DNA of 64,000 bases from the NCBI RefSeq assembly GCF_009914755.1, contig NC_060943.1; one strand, 5' to 3'. Below, in pieces: positions 1,220 through 54,425 of this stretch (the first letter of the stretch is position 1; each line of letters opens with the position of its first letter). Made by a program: the position numbers and the translations under genes. This stretch comes from the human T2T-CHM13v2.0 reference genome, Homo sapiens. A model generated the notes under the pieces. That model searched no databases. It was not told the origin of the DNA and was given only the letters and a program-made list of their open reading frames with translations.

Positions 1220-3175
1220 TTTGGGGAAAAGAAAGAGAGATCAGACTGTTACTGTGTCTATGTAGAAAGAAGTAGACATAAGAAACTCCATTTTGTTCTG
1301 TACTAAGAGAAATTCTTCTGCCTTGAGATGCTGTTAATCTGTAACCTGAGCCCCAACCCTGTGCCCACAGAGACGTGCTGTGTTGATGAAGGGGTGGGTT
1401 GCCCCTCCTCACCTGTGGGTGTTTCTCGTAAGGTGGAACAAGAGTCTTGGAAAAGAAAAGACACAGAGACAAAGTATAGGGAAAGAAATTAGAGGACCCG
1501 GGGAACCAGCGTTCAGCATATGGAGGATCCCGCCAGCCTCTGAGTTCCCTTAGTATTTATTGATCATTCATGGGTGTTTCTCCGAGAGGGGGATGTGGCA
1601 GGGTCACAAGACAATAGTGGGGAGAGGGTCAGCAGACAAACACGTGAACAAAGGTCTTTGCATCATAGACAAAGTAAAGAATCAAGTGCTGTGCTTTAGA
1701 TATGCATACACATAAACATCTCAATGCCTTACAGAGCAGTATTGCTGCCCGCATGTCCCACCTCCAGCCCTAAGGCGGTTTTTCCCTATCTCAGTAGATG
1801 GAACGTACAATCGGGTTTTATACCAAGACATTCCATTGCCCAGGGACAGGCAGGAGGCAGATGCCTTCCTCTTGTCTCAACTGCAAGAGGCATGCCTTCC
1901 TCTTATACTAATCCTCCTCAGCACAGACCCTTTACGGGTGTCGGGCTGGGGGACGGTCAGGTCTTTTCCTTCCCACGAGGCCATATTTCAGACTATCACA
2001 TGGGGAGAAACCTTGGACAATACCTGGCTTTCCTAGGCAGAGGTCCCTGCGGCCTTCCGCAGTGTTTGTGTCCCTGGGTACTTGAGATTAGGGAGTGGTG
2101 ATGACTCTTAAGGAGCATGCTGCCTTCAAGCATCTGTTTAACAAAGCACATCTTGCACCGCCCTTAATCCATTTAACCCTGAGTTGACACAGCACATGTT
2201 TCCGAGAGCATGGGGTTGGCGGTAAGGTCATAGATTAACAGAATCTCATGGCAGAAGAATTTTTCTTAGTACAGAACAAAATGGAGTCTCCTATGTCTAC
2301 TTCTTTCTACACAGACACAGTAACAATCTGATCTCTCTTGCTTTTCCCCACAGTTGACTTAAGGTTTAATGGATTTAGGGCTGTGCAGGATGTGGTTTGT
2401 TAAAAAAGTGCTTGAAGGCAGTATGTTTGGTAAAAGTCATAGCCATTCTCTAATCTCGAGTACTCAGGGACTCAATGCACTGCAGAAGGCTGCAGGGACC
2501 TCTGCCCAGGAAAGCCAGGTATTGTCCAAGGTTTCTCCCCATGTGATAGCCTGAGATATGTCCTCATGGGAAGGGAAAGACCTGACTGTCCCCCAGCCCA
2601 ACACCCGTAAAGGGTCTGTGCTGAGGAGGATTAGTGAAAGAGGGAGGCCTCTTTGCCGTTGAGATAAGAGGAAGGCACCTGTCTCCTGTTTGTCCCTGGG
2701 AATGGAATGTCTCGGTGTAAAACCCGAACGTTCGTTCTATTTACTGAGATAGGAGAAAACTGCCTTATGGCTGGAGGTGAGACATACTGGCGGCAATACT
2801 GCTCTTTACTGCACTAAAATTTTTGTGAAAAGTCAGACATAAATCTGGCCTATGTGCGCATCGAGGCACAGCACCTTTCCTTAAACTTATTTATCACAGA
2901 GATCTTTGCTCACTTGTTTTCCTGCTGACCCTCTCCCCACCATTACCCTATTGTCCTGCCACATCCCCCTCATCGAGATGGTAGAAATAGTGATCAATAA
3001 ATACTGAGGGAACTCAGAGACCAGTGCCGGCGTGGGTCCTCCGTATGCTGAGCGCCGGTCCCCTGGGCCCACTGTTCTTTCTCTATACTTTGTCTCTGTG
3101 TCTTATTTCTTTTCTCAGTCTCTCATCCCACCTGACGAGAAACACCCACAGGTGTGGAGGGGCTGGCCCCCTTCA
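1220..3175 (+). mobile_element. HERV-K(HML-2) solo LTR (older LTR5A/B type), split by a nested LTR
   Basis: Starts 'tggggaaaagaaagagagatcagactgttactg', ends 'ggctggcccccttca'; GTTGT on both flanks; sequence resumes at 2353 after the insert. Confidence 0.9.
1387..2352 (-). mobile_element. HERV-K(HML-2) solo LTR, LTR5_Hs-like, nested in the previous LTR
   Basis: 966 bp; minus strand begins TGTGGGGAAAAGCAAGAGAGATCAGATTG and ends GGGGCAACCCACCCCTTCA; TSD GTTGA at 1382-1386 and 2353-2357. Confidence 0.92.
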
Positions 3176-13803: not shown

Positions 13804-14343
13804 TAAAAAAAAAAGCAGAATATTGAGGACTCTTTGTGGAAGACCATATGATGGTCATAGAATCCATCCATCTTAAAAATCTCTACATTTTATCCCTGAA
13901 TAAAAACAGACCCCCAGGAGGCTGTGGACTTTGGCTACACTGTTCTGGGTCCCTGAAGCACTCTGATCACTGAGTTTGGTTTTGGTATTACACCACTGGC
14001 TTATCTGTGGGGGCACTAACTTCTATATGATCTATATCATGACCCATCAAAGAAATTTCTTCTTAAGTAACATGAAATATTCACTTTTCTAGAGGAGCTT
14101 TCTCCTCAGGGAAAAGGAAACGATTTGTTATTGTGTCCATGTGGTAGACTGCATTTCCCAAAGATGACCACAATAATATCTCACATTCCAAAGAAAACCT
14201 TCTGCTAAATCTTGCCACTCCCACACGAAGAGATGGAGCCTATTCCCTTCCCCCTTGAACCTAGCTAGTCTTGGTGATTTGCTTGTACCTGCAGAATACA
14301 ACAGAGGTGACACAACATAACTTCCGAGGCTAAGGCAGAAAAG

Positions 14344-15332
14344 CATGGGGGAAAGAATGAGAGATCAGACTATTACTGCATCTATGTAGAAAAAGGAAGA
14401 CAAAAGAAACTCCATTTTGATCTGTACTAAGAGAAATTATTCTGCCTTGAGATGCTGTTAATCTGTAACCCTAGCCCCAACCCTATGCTTGCAGAAACAT
14501 GTATTGTATTGACTCAAGGTTTAATGGACTTAGGGCTGTGCAGGATGTGCCTTGGTAAAAATGTGTTTGCAGGCAGTATGCTTGGTAAAAGTCATGGCCA
14601 TTCTCCAGTCTCGAGTACCCAGGGACACAATGCACTGCAGAAAGCCACAGGGATCTCTGCCCAAGAAAGCCTGTGTATTGTCCAAGGTTTCTCTCCACTG
14701 AGACAGCCTGAGATATGGCCTCATGGAAAGAGAAAGACCAGACTGTCCCCCAGCCTGACACCCATAAAGGGTCTGTGCTGAGGAGGATTAGTGAAAGAGG
14801 AAGACCTCTTTGCAGTTGAGATAAGAGGAAGGTATCTCTCTCCTGCTCATCCCTGGGAATGGAATGTGTCAGTGTAAAACCCGATCGTACATTCTATTTA
14901 CTGAGATAGGAGAAAACTGCCTTATGGCTGGAGGTGAGACATGGTGGGGGCAATACTGTCTTTACTTCACTGAGATGTTTGTGTAAAGTCAAAGATAAAT
15001 CTGGCCTATGTGCATATCAAGGCACAGCACCTTTCCTTAAACTTATTTATAACACAGAGTCCTTTGCTCACGTTTTCCTGCTGACCCTCTTCCCACCATT
15101 ACCCTATAGTCCTCCCACATCCCCCTCACCGAGATAGTAGAGATAGTAATCAATAAATACTGAGGGAACTCAGAGACCAGTGTTGGTGCGGGTCCTCCGT
15201 ATGTTGAGTGCCGGTTCCCTGGGCCCACTTTTCTTCCTCGATAGTTTGTCTCTGTGTCTTATTTCTTTTCTCAGTCTCTCGTCTCCACCTTGTGAGAAAT
15301 ACCCACAGGTGTGGAGGGGCAGGCCTCCTTCA
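14344..15332 (+). mobile_element. HERV-K(HML-2) LTR5A/B-type LTR followed by a primer-tRNA copy
   Basis: Full U3-R-U5 colinear with the other LTR5 copies; ends 'ggcaggcctccttca'; first two bases read CA rather than TG. Confidence 0.92.
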
Positions 15333-15334
15333 TC

Positions 15335-15407
15335 TGGCACCCAACATGGGGCACGAACCCATGACCCTGAGATTAAGAGTCTCATGCTCTACCGACTGAG
15401 CTAGCTG
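15335..15407 (-). tRNA. tRNA-Lys(CTT) retrocopy/pseudogene including 3' CCA
   Basis: Minus strand reads GCTAGCTCAGTCGGTAGAGCATGAGACTCTTAATCTCAGGGTCATGGGTTCGTGCCCCATGTTGGGTGCCA; anticodon CTT at 15375-15377; 5' end of the acceptor stem is missing, so probably non-functional. Confidence 0.93.
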
Positions 15408-15696
15408 CAGAATGCAACAGAGGTGACACAACATAACTTCTGAGGCTAAGGCAGAAAAGGCCCTGTGGCCGCATCTTGGCTGTCTCAGAGCCAGCATCAT
15501 GCTGTGAGAAGCCCATCCATGTCACATGTGGAGGTCACACACAGGTGCTCTGGCTGGCAGCCTCCTTGAGCCTAGTTTTCAAGTAATCCCAGCCTGGCAC
15601 ACAGATACAGAGAGGAAGAAGCCTTCAGATGATTCCAGTCCCCAACCTTCTGAGTCTTCCAGTTGAGATTCAAGACATCATGGTGTGAAGACAAGC

Positions 15697-16918
15697 TGTG
15701 CAGTAAAGGATAAACAGAGCGAGTCTGGGTTACCCAGAAACTGAACATTCCAAAGAAAGGCTCAGCCCTTCCCTATACCTGGCAGGTAACTTCTAAACCA
15801 AGCTTGTCCAACCTGCGGACCATGGGGTGCACATGGCCCAGGAGGGCTTTGTTTTGTTGTTGTTGGTGGTGGTGCACACAGCCCAGGAGGGCTTTGTTTT
15901 GTTGTTGTTGTTGTTGTTTTTGTTGTTTGAGATGGAGTTTCACTCTGTTGCCCAGGCTGGAGTGCAGGGGCACAATCTCAGCTCACTGCAACCTCCAACT
16001 CTCAAGTTCAAGCGATTCTCCCACATTCGAGCAATTCTCCTACTTCAGCCTCCCAAGTAGCTGAGATTACAGGCATGTGCCACCATGCCCAGATAGTTTT
16101 TTGTATTTTTAGTAGAGACGGGGTTTCACCATATTGGCAAGCCTGGTCTGGAACTACTGACCTCAAGTGATCTGCCCACTTCAGCCTCCCAAAGTGCTGG
16201 GATTACAGGCATAAGCCACTGTGCCTGGCCTCCAGGAGGGCTTTGAATGCAAAACAAATTTGTAAACTTTCTTAAAACATTATGAGATTTTTTGAGTTTT
16301 TTTTCTTTTTTCTTTAAGCTCATCAGCTATTGTTAGTGTTAGTATATTTTATGTGTGGCCCAAGACAATTCTTCTTCCAGTGTGGCCCAGGGAAGCCAAA
16401 AGACTGCACACTCCTACTCTAAGCCGTTGGAATATATTGTCCGATGAGGGTCTTTGTTTACTGGGAGCCTTGGGTCACACAAGATCGTCTATGCTAACAA
16501 TGTATGATGGAAGCCTTGGGCCACACTGTAGTTATGGTGGCCTCTGAAAGGGCTGAAGAATAAGGTCAGCCACTCATGTGCTCAGCCTCACCCATATAAC
16601 TAAAGCCAAATAAAAACCCTGGACACCCAGGCTCAAGTGGGCTTCCTGTACTGGCAATACATCATGCCTGTCGTCACACATCATGGCTAGGACAATCAAA
16701 CATTGTCCATATGACTCCACAGAGAGAGGAAAACTCAAAGCTTCTGCACAGCATCTCCCAAACCCTGCCCTACACACCTTTCTCTGTTTCTGATTTTAAC
16801 TGTATCCAGTCTATGTAATAAAATAAAATCATGAATATGACAGTTTTGCTGAGCTCTGTGTTATTCTAACAAATTATTGAACCTGAGGAACCCCAGATCT
16901 TGCGATCCCCAGAACATA
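15697..16918 (+). mobile_element. Old ERVL/MER68-like LTR interrupted by Alu (15885-16230, -) and MER30 (~15805-16420)
   Basis: 'tgtgcagtaaagg...ccctggacacccaggctcaagtgggcttcc...ttattgaacctgagg'; MER30 motif 'agctcatcagctattgttagtgttagt'. Confidence 0.5.
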
Positions 16919-18089: not shown

Positions 18090-19079
18090 TGTAGGGGAAA
18101 GAAAGATAGATCAGACTGCTACTGTGTCTATGTAGAAAGAAGTAGACATAAGAAACTCCATTTTGTTCTGTACTAAGAAAAATTCTTCTGCCTTGAGATG
18201 CTGTTAATCTGTAACCCTAGCCCCAACCCTGTGCTCACAGAAACATGTGCTGTGTCGACTCATGTCCAAGGTCTAATGGATTTAGGGCTGTGCAGGCTGT
18301 GCTTTGTTAAAAAGTGTTTGCAGGCAGTATGCTTGGTAAAAGTCATCACCATTCTCCAGTCTCGAGTACCCAGGGACACAATGCATTGCAGAAGGCCACA
18401 AGGACCTCTGCCCAAGAAAGCCTGGGTATTGTCCAAAGTTTCTCCCTGCTGAGACAGCCTGAGATATGGACTCATGGGAAGGGAAAGACCTGACTATCCC
18501 CCAACACAACACCCATAAAGAGTCTGTGCCTAGGAAGATTAGTAAAAGAGGAAGGCCTCTTTGCAGTTAAGATAAGAAGAGGGCATCTGTCTCCTGCTCA
18601 TCCCTGGGAATGGAATGTCTCAGTTTAAAACCCAATTGTACATTCTATTTACTGAGATAGGAGAAAACTGCCTTATGGCTGGAGGTGAGACATGCTGGCA
18701 GCAATACTGCTCTATACTACACTGAGATGCTTGTGTAAAGTCAAACATAAATCTGGCCTACGTGCACATCAAGGCACAGCACCTTTCCTTATTTATGACA
18801 CAGAGAACTTTGTTCACATATTTTCCTGCTGACCCTCTCCCCACCATTACCCTATAGTCCTGCCACATCCCCCTCACCGAGATGGTAGAGATAGTGATCA
18901 ATGAATACTGAGGAAACTCAGAGACCAGTGCTGGCAGGAGTCCTTCGTATGCTGAGTGCTGGTCCCCTGGGCCCACTGTTCTTTCTCTATACTTTGTCAG
19001 TGTGTCTTATTTCTTTTCTCAGTCTCTCATCCCACCAGATGAGAAATACCCACAGGTGTGGAGAGGCTGGCCCCCTTCA
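18090..19079 (+). mobile_element. HERV-K(HML-2) LTR5A/B-type solo LTR without TSD
   Basis: TGTAGGGGAAAG...CCCCCTTCA; flanks TACCAG and TAAGGT do not match. Confidence 0.92.
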
Positions 19080-50975: not shown

Positions 50976-51970
50976 TGTGGGGGAAAGCAAGAGAGATCAG
51001 ACTATTACTATATCTATGTAGAAAGAAAAAGACGTAACAAACTCCATTTTATTCCGTACTAAGAAAAATTCTTCTGCCTTGAGATGCTGTTAATCTGTAA
51101 CCCTAGCCCCAACCTTGTGCTTGCAGAGACATGTGCTGTGTTGACTCAAGGTTTAATGGATTTAGGGCTGTGCAGGACGTGCTTTGTTAAAAATGTGTTT
51201 GAAGGTAGTATGCTTGGTAAAAGTCATCGCCATTCTCCAGTCTCAAGTACCCAGGGACACAATGCATTGCAGAAGGCCACAGGGACCTCTGCCCTAGAAA
51301 GCCTGGGTATTGTCCAAGGTTTCTCTCCACTGAGACAGCCTGAGATATGGCCTCATGGGAAGGGAAAGACCTGGCCATCCCCCAGCCTGACACCCATAAA
51401 GGGTCTGGGCTGAGGAGGATTCGTGAAAGAGGAAGATCTCTTTGCAGTTGAGATAAGAGGAAGGCATCTGTCTCCTGCTCATCCCTGGGAATGGAATATC
51501 TCAGTGTAAAACTTGATCATACATTCTATTTACTGAGATAGGAGAAAACTGCCTTATGGCTGGAGGTGAGATATGCTGGGGGCAATACTGCTCTTTACTG
51601 CACTGAGATGCTTGTGTAAAGTCAAACATAAATCTGGCCTACGTGCACATCAAGGCACACACAGCACCTTTCCTTAAACTTATTTATGACACAGAGTCCT
51701 TTGCTCACGTGTTTTCCTGCTGACCCTCTCCCCACCATTACCCTATAGTCCTGCCACATCCCCCTCACCGAGATTGTAAAGATAGTGATCAATAAATACT
51801 GAAGAAACTCAGAGACCAGTGCTGGCGTGGGTCCTCCATACGCTGAGTGCTGGTCCTCTGGGCCCACTGTTCTTTCTCTATACTTTGTCTCTGTGTCTTA
51901 TTTCTTTTCTCAGTCTCTCATCCTACCTGACGAGAAACACCCACAGGTGTGGAGGGGCTGGCCCCCTTCA
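50976..51970 (+). mobile_element. HERV-K(HML-2) LTR5A/B-type solo LTR without TSD
   Basis: TGTGGGGGAAAG...CCCCCTTCA; flanks CAGTAG and GCTGTA do not match. Confidence 0.92.
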
Positions 51971-53436: not shown

Positions 53437-54425
53437 TGAAGGGGGCCAGCCCTTCCACCCCTGTGGATATTTCTCATCAGGTGGGATGAGAGACTGAGAA
53501 AAGAAAGAAGACACAGAGACAAAGTATAGAGAAAGAACAGTGGGCCCAGGGGACCGGCGCTCAGCATACAGAGGACCCACACCAGCACTGGTCTCTGAGT
53601 TCCCTCAGTATTTATTGATCACTATCTCTACCATCTCGGTGAGGGGGATATGGCAGGACTATAGGGTGATGGTGGGGAGAGGGTCAGCAGGAAAACATGT
53701 GAGCAAAGGACTCTGTGTCATAAATAAGTTTAAGGAAAGGTGCTGTGTGTGCCTTGTTGTGCACATAGGCCAGATTTATGTTTGACTTTACACAAACATC
53801 TCAGTGCAGTAAAGATCAGTATTGCCCCCAGCATGTCTCACCTCCGGCCATAAGGCGGTTTTCTCCTATCTCAGTAAACAAAATTTACGATTGGGTTTTA
53901 CACTGAGACATTCCATTCCCAAGGACGAGCAGGAGACAGATGGCTTCCTCTTATCTCAACTGCAAAGAGGCCTTCCTGTTTTACTAATCCTCCAGGGCCC
54001 AAACCCTTTATGGGTGTCGGGCTGGGGGAGGGTCAAGTCTTTCCCTTCCCAAGAGGCCATATCTCAGGCTGTCTCAGTGGGGAGAAACCTTGGACAATAC
54101 CCAGGCTTTCTAGGGCAGAGGTCCCTGTGGCCTTCCGCAGTGCATTGTGTCCCTGGGTACTCGAGACTGGGGAATGGTGATGACTTTTACCAAGCATACT
54201 GCCTGCAAACACATTTTAACAAAGCACATCCTGCACAGCCCTAAATCCATTAAACCTTGAGTCAACACAGCACATGTTTCTGTGAGCACAAGGTTGGGGC
54301 TAGGGTTACAGATTAACAGCATCTCAAGGCAGAAGAATTTCTTAGTACAGAACAAAATGGAGTTCCTTATGTCTACTTTCTTCATAGACACAGTAACAGT
54401 CTGATCTCTCTTTCTTTTCCCCACA
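53437..54425 (-). mobile_element. HERV-K(HML-2) LTR5A/B-type solo LTR
   Basis: Minus strand TGTGGGGAAAAG...CCCCCTTCA; perfect TSD CTCTCT at 53431-53436 and 54426-54431. Confidence 0.94.

What the first reader, a model, noticed from the sequence alone, without database searches (positions are those of the whole stretch)
14289..15459. HERV-K LTR fused to a near-complete copy of its own tRNA-Lys primer, inside a 55-bp target duplication: fossil of aberrant reverse transcription and one-ended integration
Seen: a full LTR5 (14344-15332), the usual TC spacer and the 18-nt PBS (15335-15352). Where the gag leader should follow, the sequence continues as the reverse complement of tRNA-Lys(CTT) for at least 71 of 76 nt, including the post-transcriptionally added CCA. 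The unit is flanked by a 55-bp direct repeat, whereas the normal LTR5 TSDs in this window are 5-6 bp. Established: HML-2 primes on tRNA-Lys(CUU), plus-strand strong-stop synthesis normally halts after 18 nt at m1A58, and retroviral DNAs with one defective end can be joined by host repair with long target duplications. Inference: RT copied through the whole primer, the U5 end was unusable by integrase and was joined by host repair (1-3 nt microhomology C/CTG at 15405), and either the strong-stop DNA itself integrated or a provirus later collapsed to a solo LTR. This is an L1-independent route to tRNA pseudogenes, and it puts Pol III A/B boxes facing antisense into the LTR, resembling a tRNA+LTR proto-SINE.
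Basis: partly seen in the sequence, partly recalled or inferred. Interest (0 to 1): 0.92.

Follow-up and report, generated by a model that had tools for sequence, protein, structure and literature searches.

The report
Retroviral LTR fused to its tRNA primer
An ancient HERV-K insertion kept a DNA copy of almost the whole lysine tRNA that primed its reverse transcription and sits inside an unusually long 55-base duplication of host DNA, and it is one of about ten such fossils in the human genome.

Summary
Window 14344-15332 is a full-length, roughly 10% diverged LTR5-type LTR. It is followed by TC, the 18-nt PBS (15335-15352), and the reverse complement of tRNA-Lys(CTT) down to tRNA position 6 (15405), with the CCA included. 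A 55-nt direct repeat (14289-14343 and 15405-15459; 2 mismatches) abuts both ends.

The locus is not unique. Among 40 scored tRNA-Lys-CTT-like hits in the same genome, 12 loci carry the CCA. Ten of these sit in PBS register behind an ERVK-type LTR or inside a provirus; 2 are poly-A (L1-type) copies.

Three loci have the tRNA copy followed by a terminal LTR piece and a normal 5-6-bp duplication. One other (chr16) has an aberrant end and a duplication of about 116-127 bp.

The base opposite m1A58 is changed in 4 of the 10 loci (permutation P = 2.3e-4 for the three transversions). In the window it is the only non-CpG change. This fits reverse transcriptase reading through a modified primer.

Read-through of the primer, followed by host-mediated joining of the unusable end, is well supported. 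Three points are not settled:
- whether a provirus was ever present;
- why the LTR starts with CA instead of TG;
- any Pol III or proto-SINE role.

Ten literature searches found no description of such germline fossils.

The parts
14289..14343 (.). Left copy of the 55-nt host direct repeat (58 nt, from 14286, if the imperfect TACC/TAGC overlap is counted)
   Evidence: the repeat finder; BLAST within the window; the only other genomic match is the right copy
14344..15332 (+). Full-length LTR5-type (HERV-K HML-2-like) LTR, U3-R-U5. It starts CATGGGGG (expected TGTGGGGG) and ends CCTTCA
   Evidence: 88-90.5% identity over query 3-989 to three other LTR5 copies in the window; 76-90% to LTRs at L002, L003, L005, L006; termini read
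15333..15334 (+). TC spacer between U5 and the PBS
   Evidence: The same TC is seen at L002, L003, L006, L007, L024, L026, L050, L051; L005 has CC
15335..15352 (+). 18-nt primer binding site, the complement of tRNA-Lys(CTT) positions 76-59 including CCA; two CpG transitions
   Evidence: Alignment to tRNA genes from L013 and L017 plus CCA. At 6 ordinary LTR5-PBS junctions, similarity stops at this boundary (query end 71-73; L008 read)
15353..15353 (+). Base copied opposite tRNA position 58 (the m1A58 site): A where T is expected. It is the only non-CpG difference from the tRNA
   Evidence: permutation test
15354..15405 (+). Continuation of the tRNA complement, positions 57 to 6 (possibly to position 4 at 15407 if 15406 is a decayed CpG)
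   Evidence: ARAGORN tRNA-Lys(ctt) 15339-15409 minus strand; Rfam RF00005 46.7 bits; alignment
15405..15459 (.). Right copy of the 55-nt host direct repeat. Its first 1-3 nt (C, or CTG) overlap the end of the tRNA copy, giving junction microhomology
   Evidence: The two differences from the left copy are at 15414 (G vs A) and 15441 (T vs C, at a CpG)

Best explanation
This is a molecular fossil of a failed step in retroviral DNA synthesis, not a working element.

How it most likely arose:
1. An HML-2-type virus primed on tRNA-Lys(CUU).
2. During plus-strand synthesis, reverse transcriptase should stop after copying 18 nt of the primer, at m1A58. Here it went through that base, inserting A instead of T, and copied the primer down to about position 6.
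3. The resulting DNA end (LTR-TC-PBS-tRNA complement) has no U5 terminus that integrase can use.
4. Host repair joined that end to chromosomal DNA at 1-3 nt of microhomology, 55 bp away from where the U3 end was joined. Both flanks therefore carry the same 55-mer.

Shown: the architecture, the CCA, the register, the position-58 change, the duplication, and the recurrence at other loci.

Inferred:
- that m1A58 was present and read through;
- that host repair joined the tRNA end;
- that integrase joined the U3 end;
- that the unit integrated as it stands, rather than as a provirus with a tRNA-tailed right end that later collapsed to a solo LTR.
For: 1. The tRNA piece is a cDNA of the mature primer.
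- 67 of 71 positions match tRNA-Lys-CTT plus CCA.
- CCA is not encoded at any of the 10 loci found with real tRNA-Lys-CTT genes (9 distinct genes; L010 and L033 are the same place); their 3' flanks are listed.
- The TC spacer and PBS register are exact.

2. The architecture recurs. One search scored 40 of 45 candidates. Thirteen hits, at 12 loci, include the CCA. Ten of these loci are ERV-linked:
- window, L002, L003, L005 and L006 behind LTR5;
- L024, L026 and L051 behind a second LTR family;
- L050 behind a third, old repeat family;
- L007 inside an HML-2 provirus (Pfam).
The other two (L009, L025) are poly-A copies.

3. The events are independent. Two isodecoders were captured, and the end points differ: tRNA positions 14, 14, 11, 8, 6, 6, 3, 2, 1, 1.

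4. Position 58 is changed in 4 of the 10 loci: A, A, G, C. Three of the 9 non-CpG transversions in the whole set fall there. Permutation gives P = 2.3e-4 for position 58, and 0.017 for any site.
- m1A causes both arrest and misincorporation by reverse transcriptases (PMC4787781, abstract and passages).
- m1A58 is needed for the plus-strand stop (PMC8599865, abstract and passages).

5. A second locus has a long duplication. L005 has an aberrant right end (tRNA copy, then inverted gag) and a host duplication of about 116-127 bp (107 of 127 aligned columns identical, 12 gapped). Retroviral DNAs with one end unusable by integrase are inserted by host enzymes, with duplications much longer than 5 bp (PMC5041404, passages).

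6. Three loci (L002, L003, L026) have the tRNA copy followed by the last 53, 340 or 10 nt of the LTR and a normal 5-6-bp duplication. When a U5 terminus was regained, integration was normal.

7. The 55-mer appears to have been single-copy before the insertion. A diverged paralogue of the flanking ancient repeat (L054) aligns colinearly with left flank + 55-mer and with 55-mer + right flank, holding one copy.

8. Negative control: 0 of 7 non-cluster tRNA-Lys-TTT-like copies have CCA plus an LTR.
Against: - The LTR begins CA, not the conserved TG; 7 of 7 other LTR5 copies inspected begin TG. Normal integrase joining of the U3 end is therefore not shown, and both ends may have been joined by the host.
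- No orthologous empty site could be examined. The single-copy state of the 55-mer rests on a weak paralogue alignment (62-68% identity, E = 0.001 for the right half).
- Six of the 10 loci have the expected T at position 58. Read-through could equally reflect unmodified primers in those cases. One L1-type control (L025) also has A at position 58, so the signature is not specific to the retroviral enzyme.
- The position-58 test uses only 10 events, with tRNA end points judged by eye.
- The census is a lower bound. It covers BLAST-level sensitivity only, with 40 of 45 candidates scored.
Confidence: 0.8

Rival explanations
1. The read-through happened as above, but at the right end of a complete linear viral DNA. 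The tRNA primer was not removed from the minus strand, and the plus strand copied it beyond the 3' LTR. A full provirus was inserted one-endedly and later collapsed to a solo LTR by LTR-LTR recombination, leaving LTR-PBS-tRNA.
For: The final structure would be identical. Solo LTRs far outnumber proviruses in this family (recalled, not tested here). L007 shows that a full tRNA copy can sit inside an otherwise provirus-sized element.
Against: Nothing in the human sequence requires a lost provirus. At L005, what follows the tRNA copy is a template-switch product (inverted gag), not host DNA. This shows that aberrant products were inserted directly.
Confidence: 0.3
2. Integrase played no part. A free LTR-PBS-tRNA cDNA (extended plus-strand strong-stop DNA with its template) was captured at a staggered chromosome break by end joining at both ends.
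For: The U3 terminus reads CA instead of TG. The tRNA-side junction shows only 1-3 nt of microhomology.
Against: The LTR is otherwise complete to its first base position, with no terminal loss as is common in end joining. The chr16 analogue (L005) has a normal TG start together with a long duplication.
Confidence: 0.2
3. The 55-nt repeat is unrelated to the insertion: either a pre-existing tandem duplication or a later local duplication.
For: No empty site was seen directly.
Against: The two copies abut exactly the two ends of the inserted unit. The 55-mer is found nowhere else in the genome. The paralogue L054 has one copy. A second tRNA-tailed locus has the same topology with about 120 bp.
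Confidence: 0.07
4. Two independent events: an ordinary LTR or provirus insertion, plus a separate L1-mediated tRNA retropseudogene (or a pre-existing tRNA gene) that happens to lie beside it.
For: L1-type CCA-bearing tRNA-Lys copies do exist (L009, L025).
Against: There is no poly-A. The junction has the exact 18-nt PBS register and TC spacer. CCA is present, and genes lack it. The arrangement repeats at 10 loci with different flanks.
Confidence: 0.02

Closest known systems
Aberrant 'one bad end' retroviral integrations (ASLV and HIV vector experiments of the Hughes laboratory; PMC5041404, passages read; the original ASLV papers seen only as references)
   Same: One viral DNA end is unusable by integrase and is joined by host enzymes. 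Host duplications are far longer than the canonical 4-6 bp. Extra viral sequence, sometimes inverted, can sit at the aberrant end, as at L005.
   Different: Those are somatic events in cultured cells, made with engineered end mutations or integrase inhibitors. Here the bad end is a natural copy of the primer tRNA, fixed in the germ line. The supposedly good U3 end reads CA rather than TG.
Read-through of the plus-strand strong-stop site when m1A58 is missing (PMC8599865; abstract and passages read)
   Same: Plus-strand DNA continues into the primer tRNA beyond the 18-nt PBS complement.
   Different: [quoted passage not shown] The loci here show that such products did reach the germ-line genome. 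In 4 of 10 loci the position-58 base suggests read-through of a modified base rather than absence of the modification.
Circular retroviral DNA with a tRNA sequence between the LTRs (Colicelli and Goff 1986; title seen in a reference list, paper not held, content recalled)
   Same: A primer tRNA copy is retained next to U5 in a viral DNA form.
   Different: That was unintegrated circular DNA from an acute infection, not a chromosomal insertion with target duplications.
tRNA-bearing LTR elements (Helenus TRIMs; PMC10886601, abstract and passages read) and the strong-stop-DNA model of SINE origin (Ohshima and Okada; recalled, not read)
   Same: A tRNA-derived sequence is physically linked to LTR sequence. 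On the minus strand the window reads tRNA-CCA, then antisense U5-R-U3, which is the arrangement the strong-stop model needs as raw material.
   Different: In Helenus the tRNA-like part lies inside the LTRs, the elements are multi-copy, and the authors found no complementarity between that part and the PBS. Here the tRNA lies outside the LTR, is the primer itself, and each locus is a single dead-end event with no sign of amplification.
L1-mediated tRNA retropseudogenes
   Same: Both are DNA copies of a mature tRNA that include the CCA.
   Different: The L1-type copies (L009, L025) have a poly-A tract and no LTR. The window element has neither poly-A nor L1 hallmarks and is fused in PBS register to U5.

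Membership tests
HERV-K (HML-2) LTR5 solo LTR | Full-length homology to other LTR5 copies | tested here: met
Query 3-989 aligns at 88-90.5% to three LTR5 copies in the window and at 76-90% to LTRs at four other loci.
HERV-K (HML-2) LTR5 solo LTR | TG...CA termini | tested here: not met
   It ends in CA but starts with CA instead of TG. Seven of 7 comparison copies start with TG.
HERV-K (HML-2) LTR5 solo LTR | 5-6-bp target site duplication directly flanking the LTR | tested here: not met
   The LTR is flanked on the right by TC-PBS-tRNA, and the whole unit by a 55-nt repeat.
Functional tRNA-Lys(CTT) gene | Complete 73-nt gene with acceptor stem and no encoded CCA | tested here: not met
   Positions 1-5 are missing and CCA is present. 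Genes at L010-L019 and L033 have non-CCA 3' flanks.
Functional tRNA-Lys(CTT) gene | Cloverleaf and internal promoter boxes | tested here: inconclusive
   ARAGORN and Rfam still recognise a tRNA. The A-box region is unchanged, but the B box carries the position-58 change. The box consensus is recalled, and transcription cannot be tested here.
L1-mediated retropseudogene or chimeric retrocopy | 3' poly-A tract next to the duplication | tested here: not met
   There is no A-run at either junction on either strand. The controls L009 and L025 do have one.
One-ended (host-completed) retroviral integration | An aberrant viral end carrying extra sequence, joined to host DNA with a duplication much longer than the canonical length | tested here: met
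   The right end is a tRNA tail, with a 55-nt duplication. The analogue L005 has about 116-127 bp. The criterion is taken from PMC5041404.
One-ended (host-completed) retroviral integration | The other end is a normal integrase junction | tested here: inconclusive
   The LTR is complete to its first position, but that position reads CA, not TG.
SINE or tRNA-bearing TRIM (mobile LTR+tRNA unit) | Multiple dispersed copies descended from one LTR+tRNA source | tested here: not met
   The 10 loci differ in isodecoder, tRNA end point, LTR family and downstream structure. None is a copy of another, apart from a local tandem duplication inside L003.
SINE or tRNA-bearing TRIM (mobile LTR+tRNA unit) | Pol III transcription from the tRNA part | not testable with these tools

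The most novel reading that the evidence does not exclude
ERVK-type viruses repeatedly left germ-line insertions that preserve near-complete cDNA copies of their mature, chemically modified tRNA-Lys(CUU) primers. There are at least 10 such loci, across three LTR families, and they form an uncatalogued class.

These fossils would:
- record how an extinct reverse transcriptase handled m1A58, through misincorporation at position 58;
- show that products considered non-integrable do integrate, either through a regained U5 tail (normal duplication) or through host repair (55 to about 120-bp duplications);
- account for most CCA-bearing tRNA-Lys-CTT pseudogenes in the human genome (10 of 12 loci);
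- provide physical examples of the tRNA-plus-LTR intermediates that the strong-stop model of SINE origin invokes.
Probability: 0.45. Interest if true: 0.72.

Novelty: new variant of a known kind. Interest (0 to 1): 0.6.

Why it matters
Two phenomena known from cell-culture retrovirology are shown here to have happened naturally and to have become fixed in primate germ lines: loss of the m1A58 stop, and host-completed integration of a viral DNA with one bad end.

It also gives a simple explanation for most CCA-bearing tRNA-Lys-CTT pseudogenes in the human genome. They are copies of the ERVK primer, not L1 products.

The base at position 58 offers a rare window on tRNA modification and on the behaviour of an extinct viral polymerase tens of millions of years ago.

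The set of loci is small but well structured: normal duplications where a U5 tail was regained, and long duplications where it was not. It can therefore serve as a natural test of models of plus-strand transfer failure.

It has no evident effect on the neighbouring ZNF genes.

Tried and rejected
- Three papers were not held: Colicelli and Goff 1986, the HITME recombination paper, and Oh et al. 2006. Their content is cited only from titles in reference lists or from recall.
None returned a paper describing germ-line LTR-PBS-full-tRNA insertions. 'LTR5B' with 'tRNA-Lys' returned 0 papers. 'tRNA pseudogene' with 'LTR' and 'primer binding site' returned one general review (listing only). Subscription journals and supplements are outside this library, so prior description cannot be excluded.
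- No orthologous empty site could be checked, because no primate genomes are held. As a substitute, three diverged paralogues of the flanking ancient repeat were fetched. Only L054 spans both flanks, and the match is weak.
- Long duplications were sought at L006. Only an imperfect match of about 18 nt, starting with TGATTT, was found, and it is not significant.
- The left LTR boundary of L051 fell in satellite-like sequence, so its duplication could not be determined. The left boundary of L050 was not determined either.
- A search for inverted LTR5 sequence downstream of L005 found none within 10 kb.
- The hypothesis that the chr7 tRNA fragments (L044, L045) are related events was dropped. They are segmental duplicates of a fragment with no LTR.
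- tRNA-Lys-TTT was tested as a possible second primer with similar fossils: 0 of 7 copies qualify.
- No structure, complex or protein-homology search was relevant, and none was run.
Full report
**What is in the window**

The stretch reads, left to right:
- host sequence ending ...GGCAGAAAAG at 14343;
- a 989-nt LTR (14344-15332);
- TC (15333-15334);
- the 18-nt lysine primer binding site (15335-15352);
- then, without a break, the reverse complement of the rest of tRNA-Lys(CTT) down to tRNA position 6 (15405);
- after that the host sequence resumes with the same 55 nt that precede the LTR (15405-15459 = 14289-14343).

Tool support:
- ARAGORN calls a tRNA-Lys (ctt) on the minus strand at 15339-15409.
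- Rfam's tRNA model scores 46.7 bits against a gathering score of 29.
- The repeat finder reports the flanking repeat as 58 nt at 95%. BLAST reports 55 nt at 96.4%.
- The 55-mer has no other match in the genome.
- The LTR aligns over its whole length to three other LTR5 copies in the window at 88-90.5%.

Two details differ:
- The LTR starts CATGGGGG, whereas all 7 other LTR5 copies I read start TGT(G/A)GGG.
- Of the 3 other full LTR5 copies in the window, only one has a clean 6-bp duplication (AGAGAG).

**The tRNA piece is a copy of the mature primer**

Real tRNA-Lys-CTT genes were recovered from the same genome (loci L010-L019, L033). None is followed by CCA.

Against these genes plus CCA, the window matches 67 of 71 positions. 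Three differences are CpG transitions. The fourth is T>A at the position copied from tRNA residue 58.

The copy is in exact PBS register behind the TC spacer. There is no poly-A on either strand.

At ordinary LTR5-PBS junctions the similarity to the tRNA stops at the 18-nt boundary. This is seen in 6 hits ending at query position 71-73, and in the provirus L008 read. The extension is therefore not part of the normal leader.

**The locus is one of a class**

A search of the window's own genome with LTR end + PBS + tRNA, and with TC + PBS + tRNA alone (45 first-look candidates, 40 scored), gave 13 hits at 12 loci that include the CCA.

Ten of these loci are linked to retroviral sequence:

| Group | Loci |
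|---|---|
| Behind LTR5-type LTRs | window; L002 (chr18); L003 (chr1); L005 (chr16); L006 (chr5; LTR only 76% identical to the window's) |
| Behind a second LTR family, starting TGTTGC(A/G)GGAAG | L024 and L026 (chr7); L051 (chr11) |
| Behind a third, old dispersed repeat whose copies end within 8 nt of the TC | L050 (chr3) |
| Inside an HML-2 provirus | L007 (chr19) |

In L007, the segment between the protease/G-patch and RNase H is replaced by about 13-22 nt of U5 end, then TC, PBS and a full tRNA copy. The junction shares 9 nt with the start of pol.

The other two CCA-bearing loci (L009, L025) have poly-A tracts and no LTR. They look L1-made.

The remaining 27 hits are:
- gene-type sequences without CCA: 13 tRNA-Lys-CTT-type, 7 tRNA-Lys-TTT-type;
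- 7 tRNA fragments.

The ten events are independent:
- Two isodecoders were captured: the GAGACTCTTAATCTCAG type in 8 loci and the GGGACTCTTAATCCCAG type in L002 and L006.
- Copying stops at tRNA positions 14, 14, 11, 8, 6, 6, 3, 2, 1 and 1.
- The flanks are unrelated.

As a negative control, 7 non-cluster tRNA-Lys-TTT-like copies were read. None has CCA with an LTR.

**Position 58**

The first base after the PBS is copied from A58, which is 1-methylated in cytoplasmic tRNAs. This is the accepted stop for plus-strand strong-stop DNA (PMC8599865, abstract and passages).

On the LTR strand it should be T. The observed bases are:
- A in the window;
- A in L007;
- G in L005;
- C in L050;
- T in the other six loci.

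Position 58 is the only non-CpG site hit more than twice. It holds 3 of the 9 non-CpG transversions in the set.

I redistributed each element's transversions over its own non-CpG sites 200,000 times. This gave 3 or more transversions at position 58 with frequency 2.3e-4, and at any single site with frequency 0.017.

m1A is known to cause both arrest and misincorporation, including dATP insertion in some contexts (PMC4787781, abstract and passages). This suggests that at least some of these events were read-through of a modified primer, not use of an unmodified one.

Caveats:
- There are only ten events.
- The tRNA end points were judged by eye.
- One L1-type control (L025) also has A at position 58.

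**What happened after the read-through**

*Group with a regained U5 tail.* In L002, L003 and L026 the tRNA copy is followed by the last 53, about 340 or 10 nt of the same LTR. The whole unit is flanked by a normal duplication (CTTCCC, AAGTG, AGAAAC).
- The growing plus strand evidently switched back onto LTR sequence and ran to the U5 terminus.
- This recreated an end that integrase could use.
- L003 carries one extra [LTR 650-end + PBS + tRNA] unit. That unit is 98.7% identical to the first copy, but 96.0% and 94.5% separate the terminal piece from the other two. The extra unit therefore looks like a later tandem duplication.

*Group without a regained tail.* Here the end is joined to host DNA irregularly.
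- Window: 55-nt duplication, with a junction inside C/CTG shared by the tRNA and the host.
- L005: the tRNA copy runs into reverse-complemented gag (MA to NC; Pfam, BLAST). The host flank is duplicated over about 116-127 bp (107 of 127 aligned columns identical, with one 12-nt gap).
- L024: the copy lies in an Alu with an ambiguous overlap of about 5 nt.
- L006: at best an imperfect match of about 18 nt.
- L050, L051: not resolved.

This matches the experimental finding that viral DNA with one end unusable by integrase is still inserted, with the bad end joined by host enzymes. The resulting duplications are 'usually much larger' than 5 bp, and extra viral sequence in either orientation can be present (PMC5041404, passages).

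**The 55-mer was probably single-copy before the insertion**

No primate genome is available here. The flank belongs to an ancient repeat with a few diverged paralogues.

One paralogue (L054, chr12) aligns colinearly in two ways:
- to window 14143-14332 (left flank + 55-mer);
- to window 15408-15521 (55-mer + right flank).

Both 55-mer copies map to the same L054 segment. The identities are low (62-68%), so this is supporting evidence, not decisive.

The two 55-mer copies differ at 2 of 55 positions, one of them a CpG. Together with LTR copies that differ by about 10% from one another, this fits an old insertion. I give no date, because 2 differences carry a very wide error.

**What remains open**

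1. The human sequence cannot tell whether the unit integrated as it stands, or as the right end of a full provirus that later recombined to a solo LTR.
2. The CA at the LTR start is unexplained. It may be two adjacent transitions, or a sign that the host also joined the U3 end.
3. The Pol III/proto-SINE idea has no support.
   - The copy lacks tRNA positions 1-5.
   - Its B box carries the position-58 change (the box consensus is recalled).
   - No LTR+tRNA unit has been amplified.
   - No expression data could be consulted.

**Comparison with what is known**

The components are known:
- the m1A58 stop and its loss (PMC8599865);
- tRNA sequences retained in circular viral DNA (Colicelli and Goff 1986; title only);
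- host-completed one-ended integration (PMC5041404).

tRNA-bearing LTR elements exist (Helenus; PMC10886601). There, however, the tRNA-like part lies within the LTRs of multi-copy elements and is unrelated to the PBS.

[quoted passage not shown] The loci here are natural counter-examples.

Ten searches of the held library found no description of germ-line LTR-PBS-tRNA fossils. Subscription literature and supplements were not covered.

**Verdict**

- The one-ended-integration step is supported by analogy and by a second long-duplication locus, but it is not proven.
- The proto-SINE suggestion is unsupported.

I rate this as a new variant of a known kind, of moderate to good interest.

Noticed in passing
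L007 with L022/L023 (G000 C19:38110900-38130799, minus strand): An HML-2 provirus in which the region between protease/G-patch and RNase H (the RT domain) is replaced by about 13-22 nt of U5 end, TC, PBS and a complete tRNA-Lys copy. The upstream junction shares 9 nt (AGGGGCAAC) between pol and U5. It looks like a double template switch involving the primer-bearing strong-stop DNA.
   Followed up: partly
L005/L021 (G000 C16:2944300-2955894, minus strand): LTR5-CC-PBS-tRNA (to position 2) is followed by reverse-complemented gag. The Pfam domain order is odd: p24 C-terminal domain before p24 N-terminal domain, with a gap between the BLAST blocks at L021 8829-9066. This suggests a further rearrangement or an insertion inside the inverted piece.
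   Followed up: partly
L003 (G000 C1:39371403-39374521, minus strand): A tandem extra unit [LTR 650-end + PBS + tRNA] is 98.7% identical to the first copy. The true terminal LTR piece is 94.5-96% identical to the other two. This points to a later unequal-crossover duplication on top of the original aberrant insertion.
   Followed up: yes
tRNA position 6 across loci (window 15405; L002; L006, L051, L025): Copying stops exactly at position 6 in both the window and L002. Three of the six copies that extend beyond it (two ERV-linked, one L1-type control) have C>T there. Position 6 is an m2G site according to the title of PMC8599901 (search listing only). This may be a second modification footprint or chance.
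   Followed up: no
window 50976-51970 (+) and 53437-54425 (-); 18090-19079 (+): Two full LTR5 copies lie in inverted orientation about 1.5 kb apart. Two of the three full LTR5 copies checked (50976-51970 and 18090-19079) lack a recognisable 5-6-bp duplication. This may reflect recombination between elements or decay.
   Followed up: no
window 1222-3175: Nested or rearranged LTR5 fragments lie on both strands: 1400-2350 minus at 77%, 2354-3175 plus at 89%, and 1222-1377 plus at 88%.
   Followed up: no
L044/L045 (G000 C7:45912135 and C7:36021714; a third copy at C7:43709404): A 51-nt tRNA-Lys-CTT fragment (about positions 55 to 4) with identical flanks is present at three chr7 sites. This is a segmental duplication of a tRNA fragment, unrelated to LTRs.
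   Followed up: partly
window 15949-16000: A sub-threshold Rfam hit to mir-3135 (33 bits against a gathering score of 80) at the edge of the searched stretch, in sequence that looks Alu-like. Probably not meaningful.
   Followed up: no
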